Positions 27,301-36,300 of a stretch of 41,654 bases of DNA are shown in pieces (position 1 is the first letter of the stretch; each line of letters opens with the position of its first letter). This DNA comes from Opitutales bacterium (GTDB lineage Bacteria > Verrucomicrobiota > Verrucomicrobiia > Opitutales > Coraliomargaritaceae): positions 1-41,654 of the forward strand of contig JBMYNR010000014.1 of the NCBI GenBank assembly GCA_049598495.1. Direction: 5' to 3'. The position numbers were made by a program.

Positions 27301-30300
27301 GGCCGGCGGCGTCGGAAGGTCGCTGACGTAATGAACCCGACCGTCACCTTTTTTAAGTAAATAAAAACCGGATAGAAAAATGTTAAGTGAACGCTACGTA
27401 GATATTTCCGATCTTGTTAAAGCTTACCCGAACCCATTCGGAGATGAGATAAAGGTCGTCGACGGCTTTAATCTCAAAGTCCCGCAGGGTGATGTCGTCT
27501 CGATTATCGGCCACTCCGGCTGTGGTAAGTCCACTGTGCTCAATATGATCGCCGGCCTCATCCCAATCTCAGCTGGCGGCATCATTGTTGCAGGCAAAGA
27601 GATTGATGGCCCGGGCCCGGATCGTGCGGTTGTTTTTCAAGCACCCTGTTTGCTCCCATGGATGACCGCTTTCGGCAATGTCATGATCGGTGTGAAGGTC
27701 AGCTACCCGCACGTCTCCAAGGCAGAGCGTACGGAGATGGTTGAAGCCGCACTCAGCATGGTGGGCCTCAAGGACTCCATGTATAAATACCCGCGTGAGA
27801 TGTCGGGTGGAATGCAGCAGCGAGTGGGTATCGCCCGAGCCATCGCGCTGAAGCCGCGTATGCTGCTTCTCGACGAGCCACTCGGCCGCCTCGACTCGCT
27901 CACGCGGATGGAGCTCCAGGATGTGATCCTTCGCATTCTTGATAAGGAAAAGATTACCACGATGATCATCACTCACGATCCTGATGAAGCCGTCTATATG
28001 TCGGACCGGATTTGCATGATGACGAACGGTCCGCATGCAAAAGTCGGTGAGGTCATGGAAATCGAGTTTGAAAGGCCCCGTGATCGCGCGGCCATAGTGG
28101 AAACCGATCAGTTCTACGAATATCGCCGTCGCCTTCTTGCCTTCCTTGATGAGTGCGAGGCTGAGAAGGAAGAACGTCGTATGCTCAAGGCTTCCAAAAC
28201 GGAGGAAAAAGAGCCAGTTCGCAAGGCTAGCTAGATTTGCAAGGAGGCTTTCATGTCCGAATCTTTCAGCACGACCCAGAAGCAGTATCTCGAGGGTTTT
28301 TTCGCAGGCGTCAACCAGCGTCCGCAGATGCCCTTTCTTGGCCAAAACACCGCGGGTCAGTTCACCGGGGATCCGGCCGAGGCGGTTGAGGAGACAGTCT
28401 ACGGAACACCCGTTGATGAGCTCTGCAAAGAAGAGCAGATCAAGCACGAGCAGAACGGTCTCGATGTATGGGACACCATCGTCAAGGACTCGGAGATCGG
28501 TCAATTCCCGCAGGGTGGGGACCTTTTTCGGTATAAGTTCTACGGGCTTTTTCATGTGAAACCCGCGCAGGACTCGCTCATGTTACGATGTCGTATCGCT
28601 GGTTGCGCGCTAAAGGCGCATCAAATGGTGGGTCTCGCGGAGATCGCGGAAGACTGGGGTGGCGGCTATGCCGACATCACGACGCGTGGCAACTTCCAGG
28701 TGCGGGAGATCATGCCAGGCGACACGGTGTCGACACTAATCAAACTGGATGAGCTCGGACTTACCTCAAAGGGCTCTGGCGCAGACAACCTTCGGAATGT
28801 TACGGCGAGCCCGACTAGTGGCTTCGATCCTGATGAAGTGCTCGATGTGCTGCCTTATGCAAAATCCATGCACCATTATATTTTAAACAACCGCGACCTC
28901 TACGGTCTGCCACGTAAGTTCAATATCTCCTTTGATAACGGTGGCCGCGTCTCTGTTTGTGCCGATACGAACGACATCGCCTTTTATGCCGTGCGGGTGG
29001 GGGAAGGGCAGGTGGTGGAGCCAGGAGTTTACTTCAGAGTTCAACTCTGCGGGATCACGGGGCATAAGCAGTTCGCCTCCGATTGTGGACTTCTGATCAA
29101 ACCGGATCAGGCCGTACCTCTCGCTGCAGCCATGATCCGCGTCTTCATCGAGAACGGCGACCGCACGAACCGGAAAAAGGCACGTCTGAAATACTTGGTA
29201 GATAATTGGGGTGTTGAGAAATTCCTCGAAGAGACGAGTAAGAAACTTGCGTTTGAGCCGACGCGTCTCGCGCTTGAAAATTGTGAACCCCGAATGCCGG
29301 TCTACAAGCATGGCCACGTGGGTGTCTACAATGAGCGTGAAGAAGGCCTAAACTATGTTGGCGTCGTTATTCCTGTGGGGCGGATGCTGCCGGATCAAAT
29401 GCGCGCCATCGCCGCCATTGCCTCGAAGTATGGACGCGGAGATATTCGCCTGACTGCTTGGCAGAATCTGATCATTCCCGGAATTAGGGACGCAGATCTC
29501 GATTCGGTGAAAAAGGCGATCACTGCGGCTGGTTTCCACTACAAGAATACGACGATCTCGGGCGGTCTTGTTGCTTGCACCGGTAATGTCGGCTGCAAGT
29601 ATGCAGCCAGCAACACGAAGAGCCACGCACTCCAGCTCACCAAGTTCCTAGAATCTGAAATCGAATTAGATCAACCGATCAATATTCATCTCACCGGGTG
29701 CCATCACTCCTGCGCACAACACTACATCGGCGATATTGGCTTGATCGGTGCCAAGGTCAAGGTGGGGGAAGAGAGCGTGGAGGGTTACGCGGTCGTTCTT
29801 GGCGGAGGTGTGGACGATCAACAGGCCATCGCCCGCGAGATCTTTCCCGGCACAGCTTTTGAGGAACTCAAGCCCCTGATTCTCCGGGTCTTGAATACTT
29901 ACCTCGCGCAACGCCAAGAAAAGGAAACTTTCTGGCAATTCACCCGTCGGCACAGTGCCGACGAATTGAAGAGTCTTTTCTCTGTGGCTGCGTAGAGTGC
30001 GCAACTAACAAACATCATCGTGTCCTCTACGCTCACAGTCGAAGATTCTCCCCTGGAGATTCTTTTGAAGGAACAAGGGACCCTCCGGACTCCGGTTGGA
30101 CTCTTTTCCGAAGAGCACGACGCTGGTCTCGTTGAGCCCGAGCAGGCGCAGTTTTACAAACGATTGCTGCCGCTTTCAAAACCGGGCGAGGGCGAGCAAT
30201 ATGCCTTTAAAGTCGACCTGGACAAGTGTACGGGCTGCAAGGCATGCGTATCAGCCTGCCACAGTTTGAACGGGCTCGACGAGAACGAGACATGGCGGGA

Positions 30301-33300: not shown

Positions 33301-36300
33301 TTCCTCGATCAAAGCGGTGGGGTGCAATGGCCCTTTCCAGCTTCGCTTGGAGTGAAAGTAAAGAGTGGAGAGTACGAATTGGCGAAGGAACGTCGTCTCT
33401 TCGAGGATGGGGAATTCTATCATGCGGACGGGAGGGCGCGATTTGTCTTTGAAGAACCGCGGAGCATGCCCGAGCCTCCGGATGAATCCTATCCCTTCAT
33501 TCTTTTAACAGGCCGGGGCACTTCCTCGCAGTGGCACACGGGTACCCGTACGAGAAAATCGGACGTCCTGCAGAAGCTCTATCCCAAATCCCCGTATGTA
33601 GAGATTAGCCCAGTTGATGCGGAACGCCTCGGTATCAAGCCCGAAGATTTGGTTTTTGTTCGTTCGAGACGCGGAACCGCCAGGGTCAAGGCGGTTGTGC
33701 TTGGGAGCTTGCAGGAGGGTCAGGTCTTCATGCCGATGCATTACCCGGAAACGAATCAACTCACGCTGGATGCCTTCGATCCGTATTCCAAGGAGCCTTC
33801 TTACAAAGCCTGCGCCGTCAAAATTGAGAAGGCCTAGAGCAAACAATTTCATCAATTTTAGAGAATCATTCTATGACAAACGCACCATATATTCCAGATA
33901 GCGCACCCTTCAGCGAAGATCAACGCGCATGGCTGAACGGATACCTTGCGGGGCTTTACTCGTCCGATGGCAACGCGGACAACTCCGCGCCCGTTGCTGC
34001 CACTCCGGTTACGATTCTTTTCGGCTCGCAGACGGGAACCGCAGAGACACTCAGTAAAAAAGCGGCCAAGCAACTCAAGGCCTCGAATTGCGAACCGACC
34101 ATCGTGGATATGGGCGATATCTCGGCGGAAGAACTCCAGGCCGTGGAGAACCTATTGATTATTACGAGCACTTACGGTGAAGGAGAGCCGCCCGATAATG
34201 CTCAATCACTCCATGCGGCCTTGATGAGCGACGGAGCTCCGAAACTAAAGGCAACCCGCTTTTCCGTGATGGGCCTGGGCGATTCGTCTTATCCGGATTT
34301 CTGTCAATGCAGCAAGGAGTTCGATGCGCGACTGGAGGCTCTCGGCGCACAACGTTTTGCGCCAATGGTCGAAGCGGATGGTGATCCGGATGATGCTTTT
34401 TCTGAGTGGCTCGGGGCTGTCCAAGGAGTATTGGGCGAAGCCGGTTCGAGCGCAGCAGCCGTCGTTGAGTCTGAAGGCGACAGTAATGAGCCGGAGTTTC
34501 ACAAGAAGAACCCATTTCCCGCTACATTACTCAAGACAGAGAATCTAAACAAGGAAGGCTCGTCGAAGGTGACACACCATGTTGAGATTTCCCTCGAAGA
34601 CTCGGGACTCGATTACGAAGTCGGTGATGCGCTGGGGGTGTATCCCGAAAATAATGCACGACTCGTCGATGAGATTATCGAAGCGGCGGGCTTTGCGCCC
34701 GAGGAGTCGGCACCCGTTCCGGCTGGTGACGATTTACCTGTTTTTGAGGCACTTCGCTTCCACTACGATGTGAGCGTGCTCACGGAAGCATTTCTTTTGG
34801 CATGCGCCCGTTTGACGAAAAACGAGGAGCTGCATTCGATCGTTTCTGATGAATCCAAGCGGGAAGAGTATCTTTCCGGTAGGGGGCTCGTCGATCCGAT
34901 CATCGATTTCGGGGTGAAATTCCCAACAACCGAATACCTCGTGGCCCCGCTCAAGAGTCTCAATCCGCGTCTCTATTCAATCTCATCCAGCCCTAAGGCG
35001 CACCCGGGCGAAGTTCATTTGACGGTAGGAAAGGTGACTTACGATCTGCATGGGCGCGAGCGCATGGGTGTTTGCTCTACCTATCTTGCTGAGCACAAGC
35101 TCGATCGTCCGGTGAGAATTTACGTGCACGCAAACAAGGCCTTCCGACTCACAGAGAATGACGATGCGCCGGCGATCATGATCGGACCGGGCACCGGGAT
35201 TGCACCATTCCGAGCATTCCTTGAAGAACGGGAAGCGCGCGGCGCGAAGGGGAAGAATTGGCTATTTTTCGGCGACCAGCATGCGGCCACTGATTTTCTC
35301 TATCAGGATCAAATCGACTCGTGGATGAAGTCCGGCCTGTTGACGAAACTCGATACCGCCTTCTCTCGCGACCAGCAAGAAAAGATCTATGTGCAGAACC
35401 GTATCATTGAGCATGCCAATGAATTCTTCCAGTGGCTGGAAGAGGGCGGCAGCATTTACATCTGCGGGGATGCCAGTCGTATGGCGAAGGACGTCGATGC
35501 TGCCATCCACAAAGCGGTTGAACTGGCGGGGAATAAGTCTGAAGACGAGGCCAAGGCCTACGTAGAGGCGTTAAAGAAAGAGAAGCGTTACCTTCGCGAC
35601 GTCTATTGAGCCACTTGGGAACTAATCTTCAAAACCGAAGCGGGAACGCTTCGGTTTTTTCTGCCTTCGAATGGTTCAAAAGAAATTCAATCGAACTATG
35701 AAAACGGTTCATGTTCAATTCGTTTCAAATGAATACAATTGGCACAGATGGTGTTACTAAACATTTCGGGAAAAGGCACTCTTTCCAACAACAAACTAGA
35801 AATGAATACAGTATATAAACTCACTACTATGGCAGCCCTCGTGGCTGTTAACACAACCGGCCTTCTGGCCGATTCTATCGAGTCCGCCCTCGACGACTCC
35901 AAAGCAAAGCTTTCCGAGGCGGTTCCGGGCAAATTCTCGATCAACTCCCGCGTGCGCTACGAGGTTTTTGACGTGGATAATGGCAATCCAGCCCTTGACC
36001 GCGACGGAACTTCGCTCCGTGTCCGCTATGGCTACACTACGCCGAATTTCGAAGGATTCACAGCGATGGTTGAAGGCGAGACTTTAACGCGCCTCGGTGG
36101 TGATCCTGCAGACATACACCCGCTTGACGATGCCGGTGACGGCACCGATCTAAACCAACTCTGGGTGCAGTATGCTGACGCGGACAATGGTAAAGTTAAG
36201 GTAGGACGCCAGATTTACGCACTTGATGACCAACGTTTTATCGGTCATGTTGGATGGCGCCAAAATATCCAGGTTTTTGATGCCGCTACCTTCGACTATA

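What a model noticed while it worked through the whole genome (the two positions that open the first line are those of the whole stretch)
28253..35609. Assimilatory nitrate/nitrite cluster with a membrane-anchored DmsB-DmsC fusion protein and a CysJ-like diflavin reductas [...]
Between nirA (g00911) and a cyanobacterial-type narB (g00913) lies a 529-aa fusion of a four-cluster ferredoxin (DmsB-like) with an 8-helix DmsC/NrfD-type quinol-binding anchor (g00912), followed by a CysJ-like flavodoxin-FAD-NADPH reductase (g00914). Neither NarB nor the fusion has a Tat signal, so the module should face the cytoplasm: an assimilatory nitrate reductase wired to the membrane quinol pool and/or NADPH rather than to soluble ferredoxin or NADH.
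Evidence so far: Gene order nrtABCD-like transporter (g00906-g00910), nirA g00911, g00912, narB g00913, g00914, with Moco genes g00898-g00904 upstream. g00912: Fer4_11 112-202 plus four Cys clusters, DmsC 260-516, eight hydrophobic helices from residue 260; best Swiss-Prot hits DmsB/YnfG (35-37%); no twin-arginine motif on g00912 or g00913; g00913 36% identical to Synechococcus NarB; g00914 47% identical to B. subtilis CysJ over its whole length. neighbours.tsv floors: NIR_SIR within two genes of DmsC in 108 Opitutales and 1605 genomes in all; DmsC within two genes of FAD_binding_1 in 109 and 446. No paper linking DmsC/NrfD-type anchors to assimilatory nitrate reductase in four searches; the NrfD-family revi [...]
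(Added by a program. Inside this text positions count along the whole contig: contig position 1 is position 1 of the stretch shown here. "Call 12" and the like, gene names such as g00115 and contig names such as C1 are that model's own, and its searches are not shown. The text may have been shortened before it was handed on; [...] marks where a part breaks off. The agent that wrote the report below was given it as the finding of a first reader that could run no searches.)

Follow-up and report, generated by a model that had tools for sequence, protein, structure and literature searches.

The report
Membrane-wired nitrate reductase plus CysJ-fed nitrite reductase
A small marine bacterium appears to turn nitrate into ammonium with two unusual electron inputs: a nitrate reductase attached to the inner face of the membrane that probably draws on respiratory quinol, and a nitrite reductase that shares an assembly helix with its own NADPH-driven flavoprotein.

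Summary
All four genes lie at the stated coordinates with the stated domains.

g00912 joins a four-cluster iron-sulfur domain (16 invariant Cys) to an 8-helix DmsC-type anchor. The anchor keeps the quinol-site residues of E. coli DmsC (H65 and E87 correspond to H310 and E332). Neither g00912 nor NarB has a Tat signal. The Lys+Arg bias puts the Fe-S domain in the cytoplasm in 27 of 27 family members, so the anchor is inverted relative to DmsC, as is proposed for SoeC.

Comparative evidence separates two modules.
- **Fusion with NarB.** In 301 sampled genomes of the phylum, the fusion and the NarB orthologue occur in the same 29 genomes. In 55 of 70 informative loci NarB starts directly downstream of the fusion.
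- **CysJ with NirA.** CysJ or a flavodoxin-only version occurs only in NirA-containing loci (29 of 37, against 0 of 7). NirA-CysJ pairs exist without the fusion or without any nitrate reductase. NirA also carries CysJ's N-terminal oligomerisation motif.

My reading is quinol → fusion → NarB (nitrate), and NADPH → CysJ → NirA (nitrite).

I found no paper describing either wiring. This scan has noted the fusion-Nas pair on at least 7 other genomes and a NirA/CysJ-like pairing on 3.

The parts
21188..22141 (-). LysR-type regulator, divergent from the transporter genes; probable regulator of the operon (inferred)
   Evidence: Pfam HTH_1 + LysR_substrate. A LysR gene also lies upstream of the fusion in L026.
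22115..24674 (+). Two tandem NrtA-like substrate-binding proteins (22115-23281 and 23304-24674)
   Evidence: Pfam NMT1_2, 227 and 306 bits.
24734..28234 (+). NrtB-like permease (24734-26398, 554 aa, with a long N-terminal extension) and two NrtC/D-like ATPases (26437-27360 and 27380-28234)
   Evidence: TIGR01183 ntrB 143.6 bits (below cut-off). TIGR01184 ntrCD 265.3 and 299.1 bits (cut-off 291.8).
28253..29995 (+). NirA-family siroheme/[4Fe-4S] nitrite reductase with a CysJ-type N-terminal helix ([11 protein letters not shown], residues 9-19)
   Evidence: NF007126 868.1 bits (cut-off 523), against Fd-nitrite reductase NF007125 375.7 bits (cut-off 594). The motif is present in 53 of 60 orthologues.
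30020..31609 (+). DmsB-DmsC fusion. It has an N-terminal arm (1-58), a 4x[4Fe-4S] domain (59-205), a linker, and an 8-TM DmsC-type anchor (261-517). The quinol-site residues are S307, H310, S327, S330 and E332.
   Evidence: Pfam; invariant columns; BLASTP to E. coli DmsC; AlphaFold2 pLDDT 81.2, pTM 0.79; Foldseek PsrB and PsrC; K+R bias.
31609..33837 (+). Nas/NarB-type Mo-bisPGD nitrate reductase without a Tat signal. FS0 Cys are C50, C53, C57 and C85; the Mo-ligand is C177. It has a conserved 13-45 N-terminal extension.
   Evidence: Pfam. Best solved relative is D. desulfuricans NapA, 379.7 bits, with C177 aligned to its residue 140. Invariant columns in A3. It is the only full-length PF00384 match in the genome.
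33873..35609 (+). CysJ-like diflavin reductase (oligomerisation helix QRAWLNGYLAG at 17-27, flavodoxin, FAD and NADPH domains)
   Evidence: Pfam. TIGR01931 650.8 bits (cut-off 668.15). Motif present in 39 of 39 orthologues. A second CysJ next to a SiR-like gene lies on contig C10.
35739..37037 (+). Outer-membrane porin-like protein inside the operon
   Evidence: Pfam Alginate_exp and Porin_4. Homologues lie in the same clusters in L032, L043 and L045.
37050..38216 (+). MoeB-like adenylyltransferase (Moco synthesis), last gene of the + strand run
   Evidence: Pfam ThiF 220.5 bits. A ThiF gene also sits beside the NirA-CysJ-Nas cluster of L091.
17150..21186 (.). Moco biosynthesis genes: MoaE, MobA, MoaC and MoeA on the - strand, MoaA on the + strand
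   Evidence: Pfam.

Best explanation
The cluster encodes a ferredoxin-independent nitrate-to-ammonium pathway built from two separately fed reductases.

**Module 1: nitrate to nitrite.**
- NarB docks on the cytoplasmic four-cluster Fe-S domain of g00912. This domain is fused to an inverted DmsC-type anchor.
- Menaquinol is oxidised at the H310/E332 site on the cytoplasmic side of the membrane.
- Two electrons run through the four clusters to FS0 and the Mo centre of NarB.
- The result is an N-side CISM complex, built like SoeABC but run in the reductive direction.
- It is probably electroneutral in itself, so energy is conserved only where the quinone is reduced.

**Module 2: nitrite to ammonium.**
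- CysJ takes electrons from NADPH through FAD and FMN and delivers six of them to the siroheme enzyme NirA, as CysJ does for CysI.
- NirA carries a copy of CysJ's N-terminal oligomerisation helix, so the two probably co-assemble.

**Shown here:** gene content, domains, conserved residues, topology bias, co-occurrence, adjacency, and the shared motif.

**Inferred:** every physical contact, the identity of the quinol, and the direction and energetics of electron flow.
For: **Fusion anatomy**
- 16 invariant Cys.
- H310 and E332 align with E. coli DmsC H65 and E87. The NrfD review lists these among the quinol-site residues. It reports that replacing His65 blocks quinol oxidation, and it describes SoeC as sharing H65/E87 while facing the N-side (PMC8076601, passages read).
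- The model's two halves match PsrB (2vpw_B, TM-score 0.67 on the target) and PsrC (2vpw_C, 0.70) of the menaquinone-bound polysulfide reductase.

**Orientation**
- No Tat motif, and no room for one.
- K+R in loops on the Fe-S side against the other side: 19 vs 1 by hydropathy segments.
- Across 27 of 27 relatives the means are 11.1 vs 1.0. E. coli DmsC shows the opposite bias, 4 vs 8.

**Fusion pairs with NarB**
- 29 of 301 sampled genomes of the phylum carry the fusion.
- The same 29 carry a NarB match of at least 52% identity over at least 560 residues. No other genome does, apart from two short fragments.
- NarB starts within 400 nt downstream in 55 of 70 loci that have enough flank.
- In the window the stop and start codons overlap.
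- The pair also occurs beside NirB(D) instead of NirA, with no CysJ, in Planctomycetota and Myxococcota loci.

**CysJ pairs with NirA**
- CysJ or a flavodoxin-only version is in 29 of 37 NirA-containing loci and 0 of 7 NirA-lacking loci among the 44 wide loci.
- It is adjacent to NirA in 38 of 46 loci.
- L091 has NirA-CysJ beside a nitrate reductase fused to its own NADH-type reductase, with no fusion protein.
- L093 has NirA-CysJ, and its genome showed no NarB-like match.
- The motif Q..[WYFLM][LIVM].G[FYWL][FLWIVMA].G is present in 53 of 60 NirA and 39 of 39 CysJ N-termini.
- It lies in the E. coli CysJ oligomerisation region at residues 32-42 and is absent from E. coli CysI (PMC11947256, passages read).
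- In the window's own genome it occurs 3 times in 968,048 residues of open frames: in NirA, in this CysJ and in the second CysJ.

**Assimilatory context**
- 43 of 44 wide loci hold NirA or NirB.
- The window's operon includes a nitrate ABC importer.
- MenB is present over its cut-off, so menaquinone is the likely quinone.
Against: - There is no biochemical, expression or binding evidence.
- In 11 of 70 loci (Luteolibacter, Haloferula, Akkermansiaceae) the fusion stays next to NirA while NarB lies elsewhere in the genome. Linkage alone therefore does not single out NarB.
- Eight loci carry only a flavodoxin between NirA and the fusion. Its reductant is unknown and could be the fusion itself.
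- Two Planctomycetota loci place a small NAD(P)H-flavoprotein directly upstream of the fusion, which hints at an NAD(P)H input to the Fe-S wire in some lineages.
- In the window's own clade CysJ sits next to NarB, not next to NirA.
- Diflavin-fed nitrate reductases exist in actinobacteria (NasN: the original paper is recalled; two papers that mention it were seen only as search listings).
- Kin are not independent, so the co-occurrence counts overstate the support.
- MenA and MqnA/D were not found with the models tried, in a genome that is 95.4% complete.
Confidence: 0.6

Rival explanations
1. NADPH is the real donor for nitrate reduction. CysJ (or another flavoprotein) reduces the Fe-S domain of the fusion, which passes electrons to NarB. 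The DmsC part is then mainly a membrane tether, or a side link to the quinone pool.
For: In the window CysJ follows NarB directly. Two Planctomycetota loci have an FAD_binding_6/NAD_binding_1 protein just upstream of the fusion. Diflavin-fused nitrate reductases are reported in mycobacteria (search listing only; the original paper is recalled).
Against: The fusion-NarB pair occurs without any CysJ or flavodoxin in 7 of 44 wide loci. CysJ occurs without the fusion in L091 and L093. CysJ shares its assembly motif with NirA, not with NarB or the fusion. The quinol-site residues of the anchor are invariant, which a passive tether would not need. The FNR-like gene is in only 2 of 80 loci.
Confidence: 0.14
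2. The fusion feeds both reductases, or mainly NirA. Quinol electrons travel through the Fe-S wire, and through CysJ's FMN domain or the stand-alone flavodoxin, to NirA. All eight electrons would then come from the quinone pool.
For: NirA-fusion adjacency survives where NarB has moved away, in 11 of 70 loci. There is also a tight NirA-flavodoxin-fusion-NarB operon with no NADPH module, as in L057. NirA is present in 28 of 29 fusion-bearing genomes of the sample.
Against: NirA orthologues of at least 44% identity occur in 6 sampled genomes without the fusion. The fusion occurs without NirA in G076 and in the NirB(D) loci. From general knowledge (recalled values), menaquinol is a poor reductant for FMN hydroquinone and for siroheme/[4Fe-4S] centres. 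A flavodoxin can also be reduced by an unlinked NADPH reductase.
Confidence: 0.12
3. The NarB-fusion complex is chiefly a dissimilatory or redox-balancing electron sink (or a detoxifying enzyme) that happens to sit in an assimilation operon.
For: The architecture is that of respiratory CISM enzymes. The window also carries ACIII and a cbb3-type oxidase, so a quinol-based chain is present. Drawing on quinol would let nitrate serve as an acceptor when oxygen is scarce.
Against: 43 of 44 wide loci pair it with an ammonium-forming nitrite reductase. It is co-operonic with a nitrate ABC importer and a LysR regulator. A quinol site on the cytoplasmic side gives no redox loop (inference from topology; the review reads SoeC's orientation the same way).
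Confidence: 0.08

Closest known systems
SoeABC sulfite:quinone oxidoreductase (Allochromatium vinosum, Aquifex aeolicus)
   Same: A three-module complex iron-sulfur molybdoenzyme whose catalytic and Fe-S parts are held to face the cytoplasm (N-side). Its DmsC-type anchor is thought to be inverted and carries the same H65/E87 quinone-site pair (PMC8076601, passages read).
   Different: Here the Fe-S and anchor subunits are one polypeptide. The catalytic subunit is of the Nas/Nap/Fdh type. The substrate context is nitrate. Electrons would flow from quinol to substrate, not the reverse. I did not compare sequences with SoeB or SoeC directly.
E. coli DmsABC (and PsrABC of Thermus thermophilus)
   Same: A four-cluster protein plus an 8-helix cofactor-less quinol anchor. 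H310/E332 align with DmsC H65/E87. The structural matches are PsrB and PsrC.
   Different: Those enzymes are Tat-exported and face the periplasm, and their B and C subunits are separate. Here there is no Tat signal, the charge bias is opposite, and the two subunits are fused.
Assimilatory nitrate reductases NarB (cyanobacteria, ferredoxin), NasA/NasC (NADH via NasC/NasB/NasG) and NasN (mycobacteria, fused diflavin reductase)
   Same: A cytoplasmic Mo-bisPGD enzyme with FS0 and a Cys Mo-ligand, in an operon with nitrate uptake and nitrite reductase genes.
   Different: No curated Nas model reaches its cut-off (NasA_Halo 486 vs 1000; NasC 414 vs 1100). It has a conserved 13-45 N-terminal extension that the Nas models and the lower-identity relatives do not cover. 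Its constant partner is a membrane Fe-S/anchor fusion, not ferredoxin, an NADH reductase or a fused diflavin domain. The donor assignments for NarB, Nas and NasN are recalled, not tested here.
E. coli NADPH-sulfite reductase CysJ8-CysI4
   Same: A diflavin reductase with the N-terminal oligomerisation motif, partnered with a siroheme/[4Fe-4S] hemoprotein encoded in the same cluster.
   Different: The hemoprotein here belongs to the NirA family (NF007126), not CysI (166 bits vs cut-off 457). It carries the CysJ-type helix itself, which E. coli CysI lacks. CysI binds CysJ through a different N-terminal segment (PMC11947256). That paper states that siroheme nitrite reductases use ferredoxin.
NarGHI respiratory nitrate reductase
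   Same: A cytoplasm-facing, membrane-bound, quinol-fed nitrate reductase with a four-cluster subunit.
   Different: NarGHI has a NarG-type catalytic subunit and a di-haem b anchor that forms a redox loop. Here the narH model scores 40.7 bits against a cut-off of 524, and the anchor is a haem-less DmsC type.

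Membership tests
Complex iron-sulfur molybdoenzymes (DmsABC/PsrABC type) | Mo-bisPGD catalytic subunit with an N-terminal FS0 Cys group | tested here: met
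   Pfam Molybdop_Fe4S4, Molybdopterin and Molydop_binding. C50/C53/C57/C85 are invariant. C177 aligns with residue 140 of NapA.
Complex iron-sulfur molybdoenzymes (DmsABC/PsrABC type) | Four-cluster protein with 16 Cys | tested here: met
   Four Cys groups, invariant in 26 and in 27 sequences. TIGR02951 dmsB is the best NCBIfam hit, at 131 bits, below its cut-off of 214.
Complex iron-sulfur molybdoenzymes (DmsABC/PsrABC type) | 8-helix haem-less NrfD/DmsC anchor with quinol-site His and Glu | tested here: met
   PF04976, 64 bits. H310/E332 correspond to DmsC H65/E87. PsrC structural match.
Complex iron-sulfur molybdoenzymes (DmsABC/PsrABC type) | Tat export and periplasmic orientation of the A and B subunits | tested here: not met
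   No twin-arginine motif and no upstream extension possible. The K+R bias places the Fe-S side in the cytoplasm.
SoeABC | Cytoplasm-facing A and B subunits with an inverted DmsC-type anchor | tested here: met
   Same evidence as the row above. The review describes SoeC this way.
SoeABC | SoeA-type catalytic subunit and a sulfite-oxidation context | tested here: not met
   The catalytic subunit's best matches are Nas, Fdh and Nap models and NapA structures. The context is nitrate uptake and nitrite reduction. No Soe sequence was compared directly.
Assimilatory nitrate reductase NarB/NasA/NasC | Cytoplasmic Nas-type Mo enzyme in a nitrate-assimilation operon | tested here: met
Assimilatory nitrate reductase NarB/NasA/NasC | Reaches a curated equivalog score | tested here: not met
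   NasA_Halo 486.1 bits against a cut-off of 1000. NasC 414.2 against 1100.
Assimilatory nitrate reductase NarB/NasA/NasC | Soluble ferredoxin/flavodoxin or NADH-reductase donor | not testable with these tools
   Only gene context is available. It points to the membrane fusion as the partner instead.
NasN-type diflavin nitrate reductase | CysJ-like domains fused to the nitrate reductase | tested here: not met
   CysJ is a separate gene, 35 nt downstream. It co-varies with NirA.
CysJI-type NADPH siroheme reductase | Diflavin reductase with flavodoxin, FAD and NADPH domains and the N-terminal oligomerisation motif | tested here: met
   Pfam. Motif. TIGR01931 scores 650.8 bits, just below its cut-off of 668.15.
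CysJI-type NADPH siroheme reductase | CysI hemoprotein partner | tested here: not met
   CysI models score 166 and 127 bits, far below their cut-offs. The NirA family model scores 868 bits.
CysJI-type NADPH siroheme reductase | Physical complex of flavoprotein and hemoprotein | not testable with these tools
The shared motif is indirect support.

The most novel reading that the evidence does not exclude
Assimilatory nitrate reduction here is a branch of the respiratory chain. An inverted, single-polypeptide DmsBC module makes NarB a cytoplasm-facing menaquinol:nitrate oxidoreductase, so the energy of NADH oxidation is conserved at the quinone-reducing dehydrogenases before the electrons reach nitrate. 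NirA has captured CysJ's oligomerisation helix and is built into a CysJ-scaffolded particle. In the flavodoxin-only lineages, the same Fe-S wire would also reduce the flavodoxin, so that all eight electrons for nitrate-to-ammonium come from quinol, without ferredoxin or NAD(P)H.
Probability: 0.2. Interest if true: 0.85.

Novelty: new variant of a known kind. Interest (0 to 1): 0.72.

Why it matters
**A third electron input for assimilation.** By my recall, textbook bacterial nitrate assimilation has two kinds of electron input: ferredoxin/flavodoxin, and NAD(P)H. A quinol-fed, membrane-bound, inward-facing Nas enzyme would be a third kind. It would tie nitrogen assimilation to the respiratory quinone pool and change the energy bookkeeping of growth on nitrate.

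**It may be widespread.** The family's peptide patterns are estimated to occur in about 2300 stored stretches of the species-genome collection. That estimate would mean a large share of environmental 'narB/nasA' genes are annotated with the wrong donor.

**The NirA-CysJ pairing also matters.** A siroheme nitrite reductase that co-assembles with a diflavin reductase through a shared helix runs against the statement that siroheme nitrite reductases use ferredoxin (PMC11947256). It also suggests a candidate physiological donor for the NirA family. I did not check whether P. aeruginosa NirA, whose donor is not settled (PMC12688703), belongs to this family or has a CysJ-like neighbour.

**Both ideas are testable.** Knockouts can be made in cultured Coraliomargarita, Cerasicoccus or Luteolibacter strains.

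Tried and rejected
- **Complex prediction.** Complex prediction for NarB(13-742) with the fusion's Fe-S domain (1-258) was answered 'not available'.
- **Rosetta-stone search for longer fused forms.** 2 proteins passed among 7992 candidates.
  - P0392 (1157 aa) aligns to the fusion only over residues 8-410 and to NarB only over 18-517, with unrelated sequence between and after. It looks like a frameshifted gene call.
  - P0393 (2189 aa, a eukaryote gene model) merges transporter, NirA, fusion and NarB domains. I read it as a mis-called bacterial operon.
  - Neither is used as evidence.
- **Search for split forms.** 144 short DmsC-only hits among 1855 candidates. Most lie on contigs of about 1-3 kb, that is, cut genes. 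A few sit on long contigs and were not followed up.
- **Expression.** No RNA holder was listed for the stretch. The DNA holders are seawater or marine metagenomes. No reads were laid.
- **Promoter and terminator scan.** Counts were at or below the shuffle expectation, so it was not used.
- **Quinone type.** MqnA/D (PF02621) and MenA (TIGR00751) were not found with these models in the 95.4%-complete genome. MenB and one UbiA-family gene were found.
- **Literature.** Nine full-text searches gave no paper linking a DmsC/NrfD-type anchor to an assimilatory nitrate reductase, or CysJ to NirA. Subscription journals are outside the library.
- **Considered and dropped.**
  - A hidden Tat signal: no upstream start codon is possible.
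  - Formate dehydrogenase identity for NarB: the Mo-ligand Cys is followed by Met, as in NapA, and the context is nitrate.
  - The FNR-like gene as a general partner: it is in only 2 of 80 loci.

Full report
**1. What is in the sequence**

The window carries one long run of + strand genes from 22115 to 38216:
- two NrtA-like binding proteins;
- an NrtB-like permease;
- two NrtC/D-like ATPases;
- NirA (28253-29995);
- the Fe-S/anchor fusion g00912 (30020-31609);
- NarB (31609-33837);
- CysJ (33873-35609);
- a porin-like protein;
- MoeB.

Gaps between the central genes are 18, 24, -1 and 35 nt. The fusion's stop codon overlaps NarB's start codon (TAATG), with GGGAGG ten bases upstream. A divergent LysR gene and the Moco genes lie just upstream.

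- NirA is a member of the 'NirA family protein' model NF007126 (868 bits, cut-off 523). It is not a member of the ferredoxin-nitrite reductase equivalog (376 bits, cut-off 594).
- NarB reaches no curated cut-off (NasA_Halo 486/1000, Fdh-alpha 477/666, NasC 414/1100, NapA 372/904).
- NarB's closest solved relative is the monomeric NapA of D. desulfuricans (380 bits). C50/C53/C57/C85 align with the FS0 cysteines, and C177-M178 align with residues 140-141. That residue 140 is the Mo ligand is recalled.
- CysJ scores 650.8 bits on TIGR01931, just under the cut-off of 668.15.

**2. The fusion protein**

- g00912 has four Cys groups: C70/73/76/80, C116/119/124/128, C149/152/155/159 and C176/179/191/195. 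All are invariant in two alignments of 26 and 27 diverse relatives.
- Hydropathy finds eight TM segments from residue 264. The AlphaFold2 model (27-sequence alignment, pLDDT 81.2, pTM 0.79) has eight long helices between 261 and 517.
- Foldseek matches the N-terminal half to FdnH and PsrB, and the C-terminal half to PsrC and ActC. PsrB and PsrC are the two subunits of the menaquinone-bound polysulfide reductase 2vpw.
- BLASTP against E. coli DmsC (E = 2e-4, 34% over 107 residues) puts H310 on DmsC H65 and E332 on E87, and S307 and S327 on S62 and S82.
- The NrfD-family review lists these residues as the DmsC quinol site. It cites mutational work showing that replacing His65 blocks quinol oxidation. 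It notes that SoeC has the same H65/E87 pair (PMC8076601, passages read).
- H310, S327, S330, R331 and E332 are invariant in the family.

**3. Orientation**

Neither g00912 nor NarB has a twin-arginine motif. Neither ORF can be extended upstream.

The Lys+Arg counts in the loops are as follows.

| Protein | Fe-S side | Other side |
|---|---|---|
| g00912 | 19 | 1 |
| E. coli DmsC | 4 | 8 |
| 27 relatives, mean (AlphaFold2 helix limits) | 11.1 | 1.0 |

All 27 relatives show the bias. The module therefore keeps the usual geometry, with the quinol site next to the Fe-S domain, but is turned towards the cytoplasm. The review describes this only for SoeC. I checked it against the review but not against Soe sequences.

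**4. Who goes with whom**

*Size of the family.*
- 788 clusters at 50% identity match with E below 1e-30.
- All 8000 scored candidates in the 90%-identity database matched.
- An estimated 2300 stretches of the species-genome collection carry the family's peptide patterns, and 581 of the 599 stretches examined encode a relative.

*The best 80 loci.* They are mostly Verrucomicrobiota, with some Planctomycetota and Myxococcota. Of these, 70 have at least 2.5 kb downstream of the fusion.

| Downstream of the fusion | Loci |
|---|---|
| NarB orthologue (over 50% identity) starts within 400 nt | 55 |
| NarB directly downstream but missed by my gap filter (L022, L030, L062) | 3 |
| NarB 2.6 kb away (L029) | 1 |
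| No NarB in the locus | 11 |

Five of the 11 genomes without NarB in the locus were searched. All five have a 56-59% identical NarB elsewhere.

*A sample of 301 genomes of the phylum.*
- 29 carry the fusion (E ≤ 1e-60).
- The same 29 carry a NarB match of at least 52% identity over at least 560 residues.
- The other 19 genomes with any NarB-like match reach at most 38% identity. The exceptions are two short fragments, in G227 and G296.
- NirA orthologues are looser. They are in 28 of the 29, missing from G076, and also present at 44% identity or more in 6 genomes without the fusion.

*Beside other nitrite reductases.* The fusion-NarB pair also sits beside NirB(D) instead of NirA in ten loci. 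Among the 44 loci with wide flanks, 43 carry NirA (37) or NirB (6). The last one carries nrt genes.

**5. CysJ belongs to NirA**

*Context.*
- In the 44 wide loci, CysJ (25) or a flavodoxin-only homologue (4) occurs in 29 of 37 NirA-containing loci and in 0 of 7 NirA-lacking loci.
- Over all 80 loci it is adjacent to NirA in 38 of 46.
- The 8 exceptions are six close relatives with the window's own gene order, one cut contig, and one locus with an 800-nt gap.

*Two natural variants are telling.*
- L091 has NirA-CysJ next to a 1178-aa nitrate reductase fused to a NirB-N/NasB-like NADH reductase. It has no fusion protein.
- L093 has nrt genes, NirA and CysJ. Its genome gave no NarB-like match at E ≤ 1e-60.

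- NirA begins ...[16 protein letters not shown], and CysJ begins ...FSEDQRAWLNGYLAGL.
- The pattern Q..[WYFLM][LIVM].G[FYWL][FLWIVMA].G is present in 53 of 60 NirA orthologues. Six of the other seven have near variants; L043 diverges more.
- It is present in 39 of 39 full CysJ orthologues.
- In the flavodoxin-only class it is in 7 of 10. Two of those ten are split full-length genes, so the true count is 5 of 8, with 3 near variants.
- E. coli CysJ has it at residues 32-42. The N-terminal region is described as solely responsible for oligomerisation (PMC11947256, passages read). E. coli CysI has none.
- In the window's own genome the pattern occurs three times in 968,048 residues of open frames: in NirA, in this CysJ, and in a second CysJ on contig C10.
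- That second CysJ lies beside a SiR-like gene. The genome therefore has a separate sulfite-reductase pair, and g00914 is an extra copy that sits in the nitrate cluster.

**6. How it most likely works**

- **Module 1.** Menaquinol is oxidised at the cytoplasm-side site of the anchor. MenB is present. Electrons pass through four [4Fe-4S] clusters to NarB's FS0 and Mo centre, and nitrate becomes nitrite.
- Both proteins have conserved N-terminal extensions that ordinary DmsB or Nas proteins lack: fusion residues 12-58 and NarB residues 13-45, with many invariant residues.
- The fusion's extension is poorly predicted in isolation. These extensions may be docking arms, which is inference.
- Quinol protons would be released on the side where nitrate reduction consumes them, so the step itself should not build a membrane potential. 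This too is inference.
- **Module 2.** NADPH passes electrons through CysJ's FAD and FMN to NirA's [4Fe-4S]-siroheme centre, and nitrite becomes ammonium. The two proteins would be held together through the shared helix (inference).
- NarB is the only full-length Mo-bisPGD enzyme found in this 1.75-Mb, 95.4%-complete genome. The Moco genes around the cluster therefore probably exist for it.

**7. What speaks against this reading, and the rivals**

- There is no experimental evidence of any kind.
- The fusion stays with NirA when NarB moves away, in 11 of 70 loci.
- The flavodoxin-only operons leave the flavodoxin's reductant open.
- Two Planctomycetota loci add a small NAD(P)H flavoprotein upstream of the fusion.
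- In the window's own clade CysJ follows NarB.
- These points keep three rivals alive: NADPH feeding NarB through the Fe-S wire (0.14), the fusion also feeding NirA (0.12), and a mainly dissimilatory role (0.08).
- The complex predictor was unavailable.

**8. Novelty**

- The parts are known kinds: the CISM architecture, an N-side precedent in SoeABC, and the CysJI logic.
- Nine full-text searches found no paper that describes a DmsC/NrfD-type anchor on an assimilatory nitrate reductase, or a CysJ-NirA pairing.
- The 2021 NrfD review has no occurrence of 'assimilatory'.
- A 2025 structural paper states that siroheme nitrite reductases use ferredoxin.
- This scan has noted the fusion-Nas pair on at least seven other genomes, and a NirA/CysJ-like pairing on three. 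Those are unchecked AI notes.
- The tests reported here were run independently on this window's relatives.
- I rate the finding a new variant of a known kind.

Noticed in passing
window 4141-15909: There is a complete Alternative Complex III: multihaem ActA, a 1120-aa ActB, NrfD-type ActC, ActD, a cytochrome c and two unassigned membrane ORFs. A cbb3-type oxidase follows directly (COX1, FixO, cytochrome c). Together they form a quinol-oxidising chain just upstream of the Moco and nitrate genes.
   Followed up: partly
window 24734-26398: The NrtB-like permease is 554 aa, but the permease domain covers only residues 346-540. About 340 N-terminal residues are unassigned.
   Followed up: no
window 35739-37037: A porin-like gene (Alginate_exp/Porin_4) sits between cysJ and moeB. 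Homologues recur in the nitrate clusters of L032, L043 and L045. It may be a dedicated outer-membrane nitrate/nitrite channel.
   Followed up: no
G000 contig C10:43842-47293: A second CysJ (45% identical) lies divergent from a SiR-like hemoprotein (26% identical to NirA). This is presumably the true sulfite reductase. Its CysJ has the oligomerisation motif; no motif hit falls in the hemoprotein gene.
   Followed up: partly
L034, L050, L051, L057, L065, L076, L077, L080: Akkermansiaceae/Verrucomicrobiales-type operons replace CysJ with a roughly 190-aa flavodoxin. It keeps the N-terminal helix but has no FAD/NADPH module, and it sits between NirA and the fusion. Its reductant is unknown.
   Followed up: partly
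L048 7086-7889 and L073 7089-7889: Two Planctomycetota loci insert a 267-aa FAD_binding_6/NAD_binding_1 flavoprotein between a NirB-NirD fusion (986 aa) and the Fe-S/anchor fusion. It occurs in only 2 of 80 loci.
   Followed up: partly
L094 (G076:C1:430000-449999): This is a divergent variant. A fusion lacking the N-terminal arm is paired with a 43%-identical NarB-like gene. Upstream are a NasB-like flavoprotein, a multihaem cytochrome c and a globin. A second NarB (52% identical) lies 12 kb away on the other strand. No NirA was found in that genome at E ≤ 1e-60.
   Followed up: partly
L091 4012-7548 (-): A same-phylum genome without the fusion has an 1178-aa nitrate reductase fused to a Pyr_redox_2/Rubredoxin_C/BFD NADH-reductase module. 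It lies next to NirA-CysJ and a second NirA-like gene.
   Followed up: partly
window 16690-17238 (-): A MOSC-domain protein sits among the Moco genes, and a TauE/SafE-type exporter lies at 15984-16706. Their roles are unknown.
   Followed up: no
P0393 (EukProt gene model, 2189 aa): A eukaryote-labelled protein combines MFS, NIR_SIR, DmsC/Fer4 and molybdopterin domains. It is most likely a bacterial nitrate operon merged by a eukaryotic gene caller, which would mean contamination.
   Followed up: no
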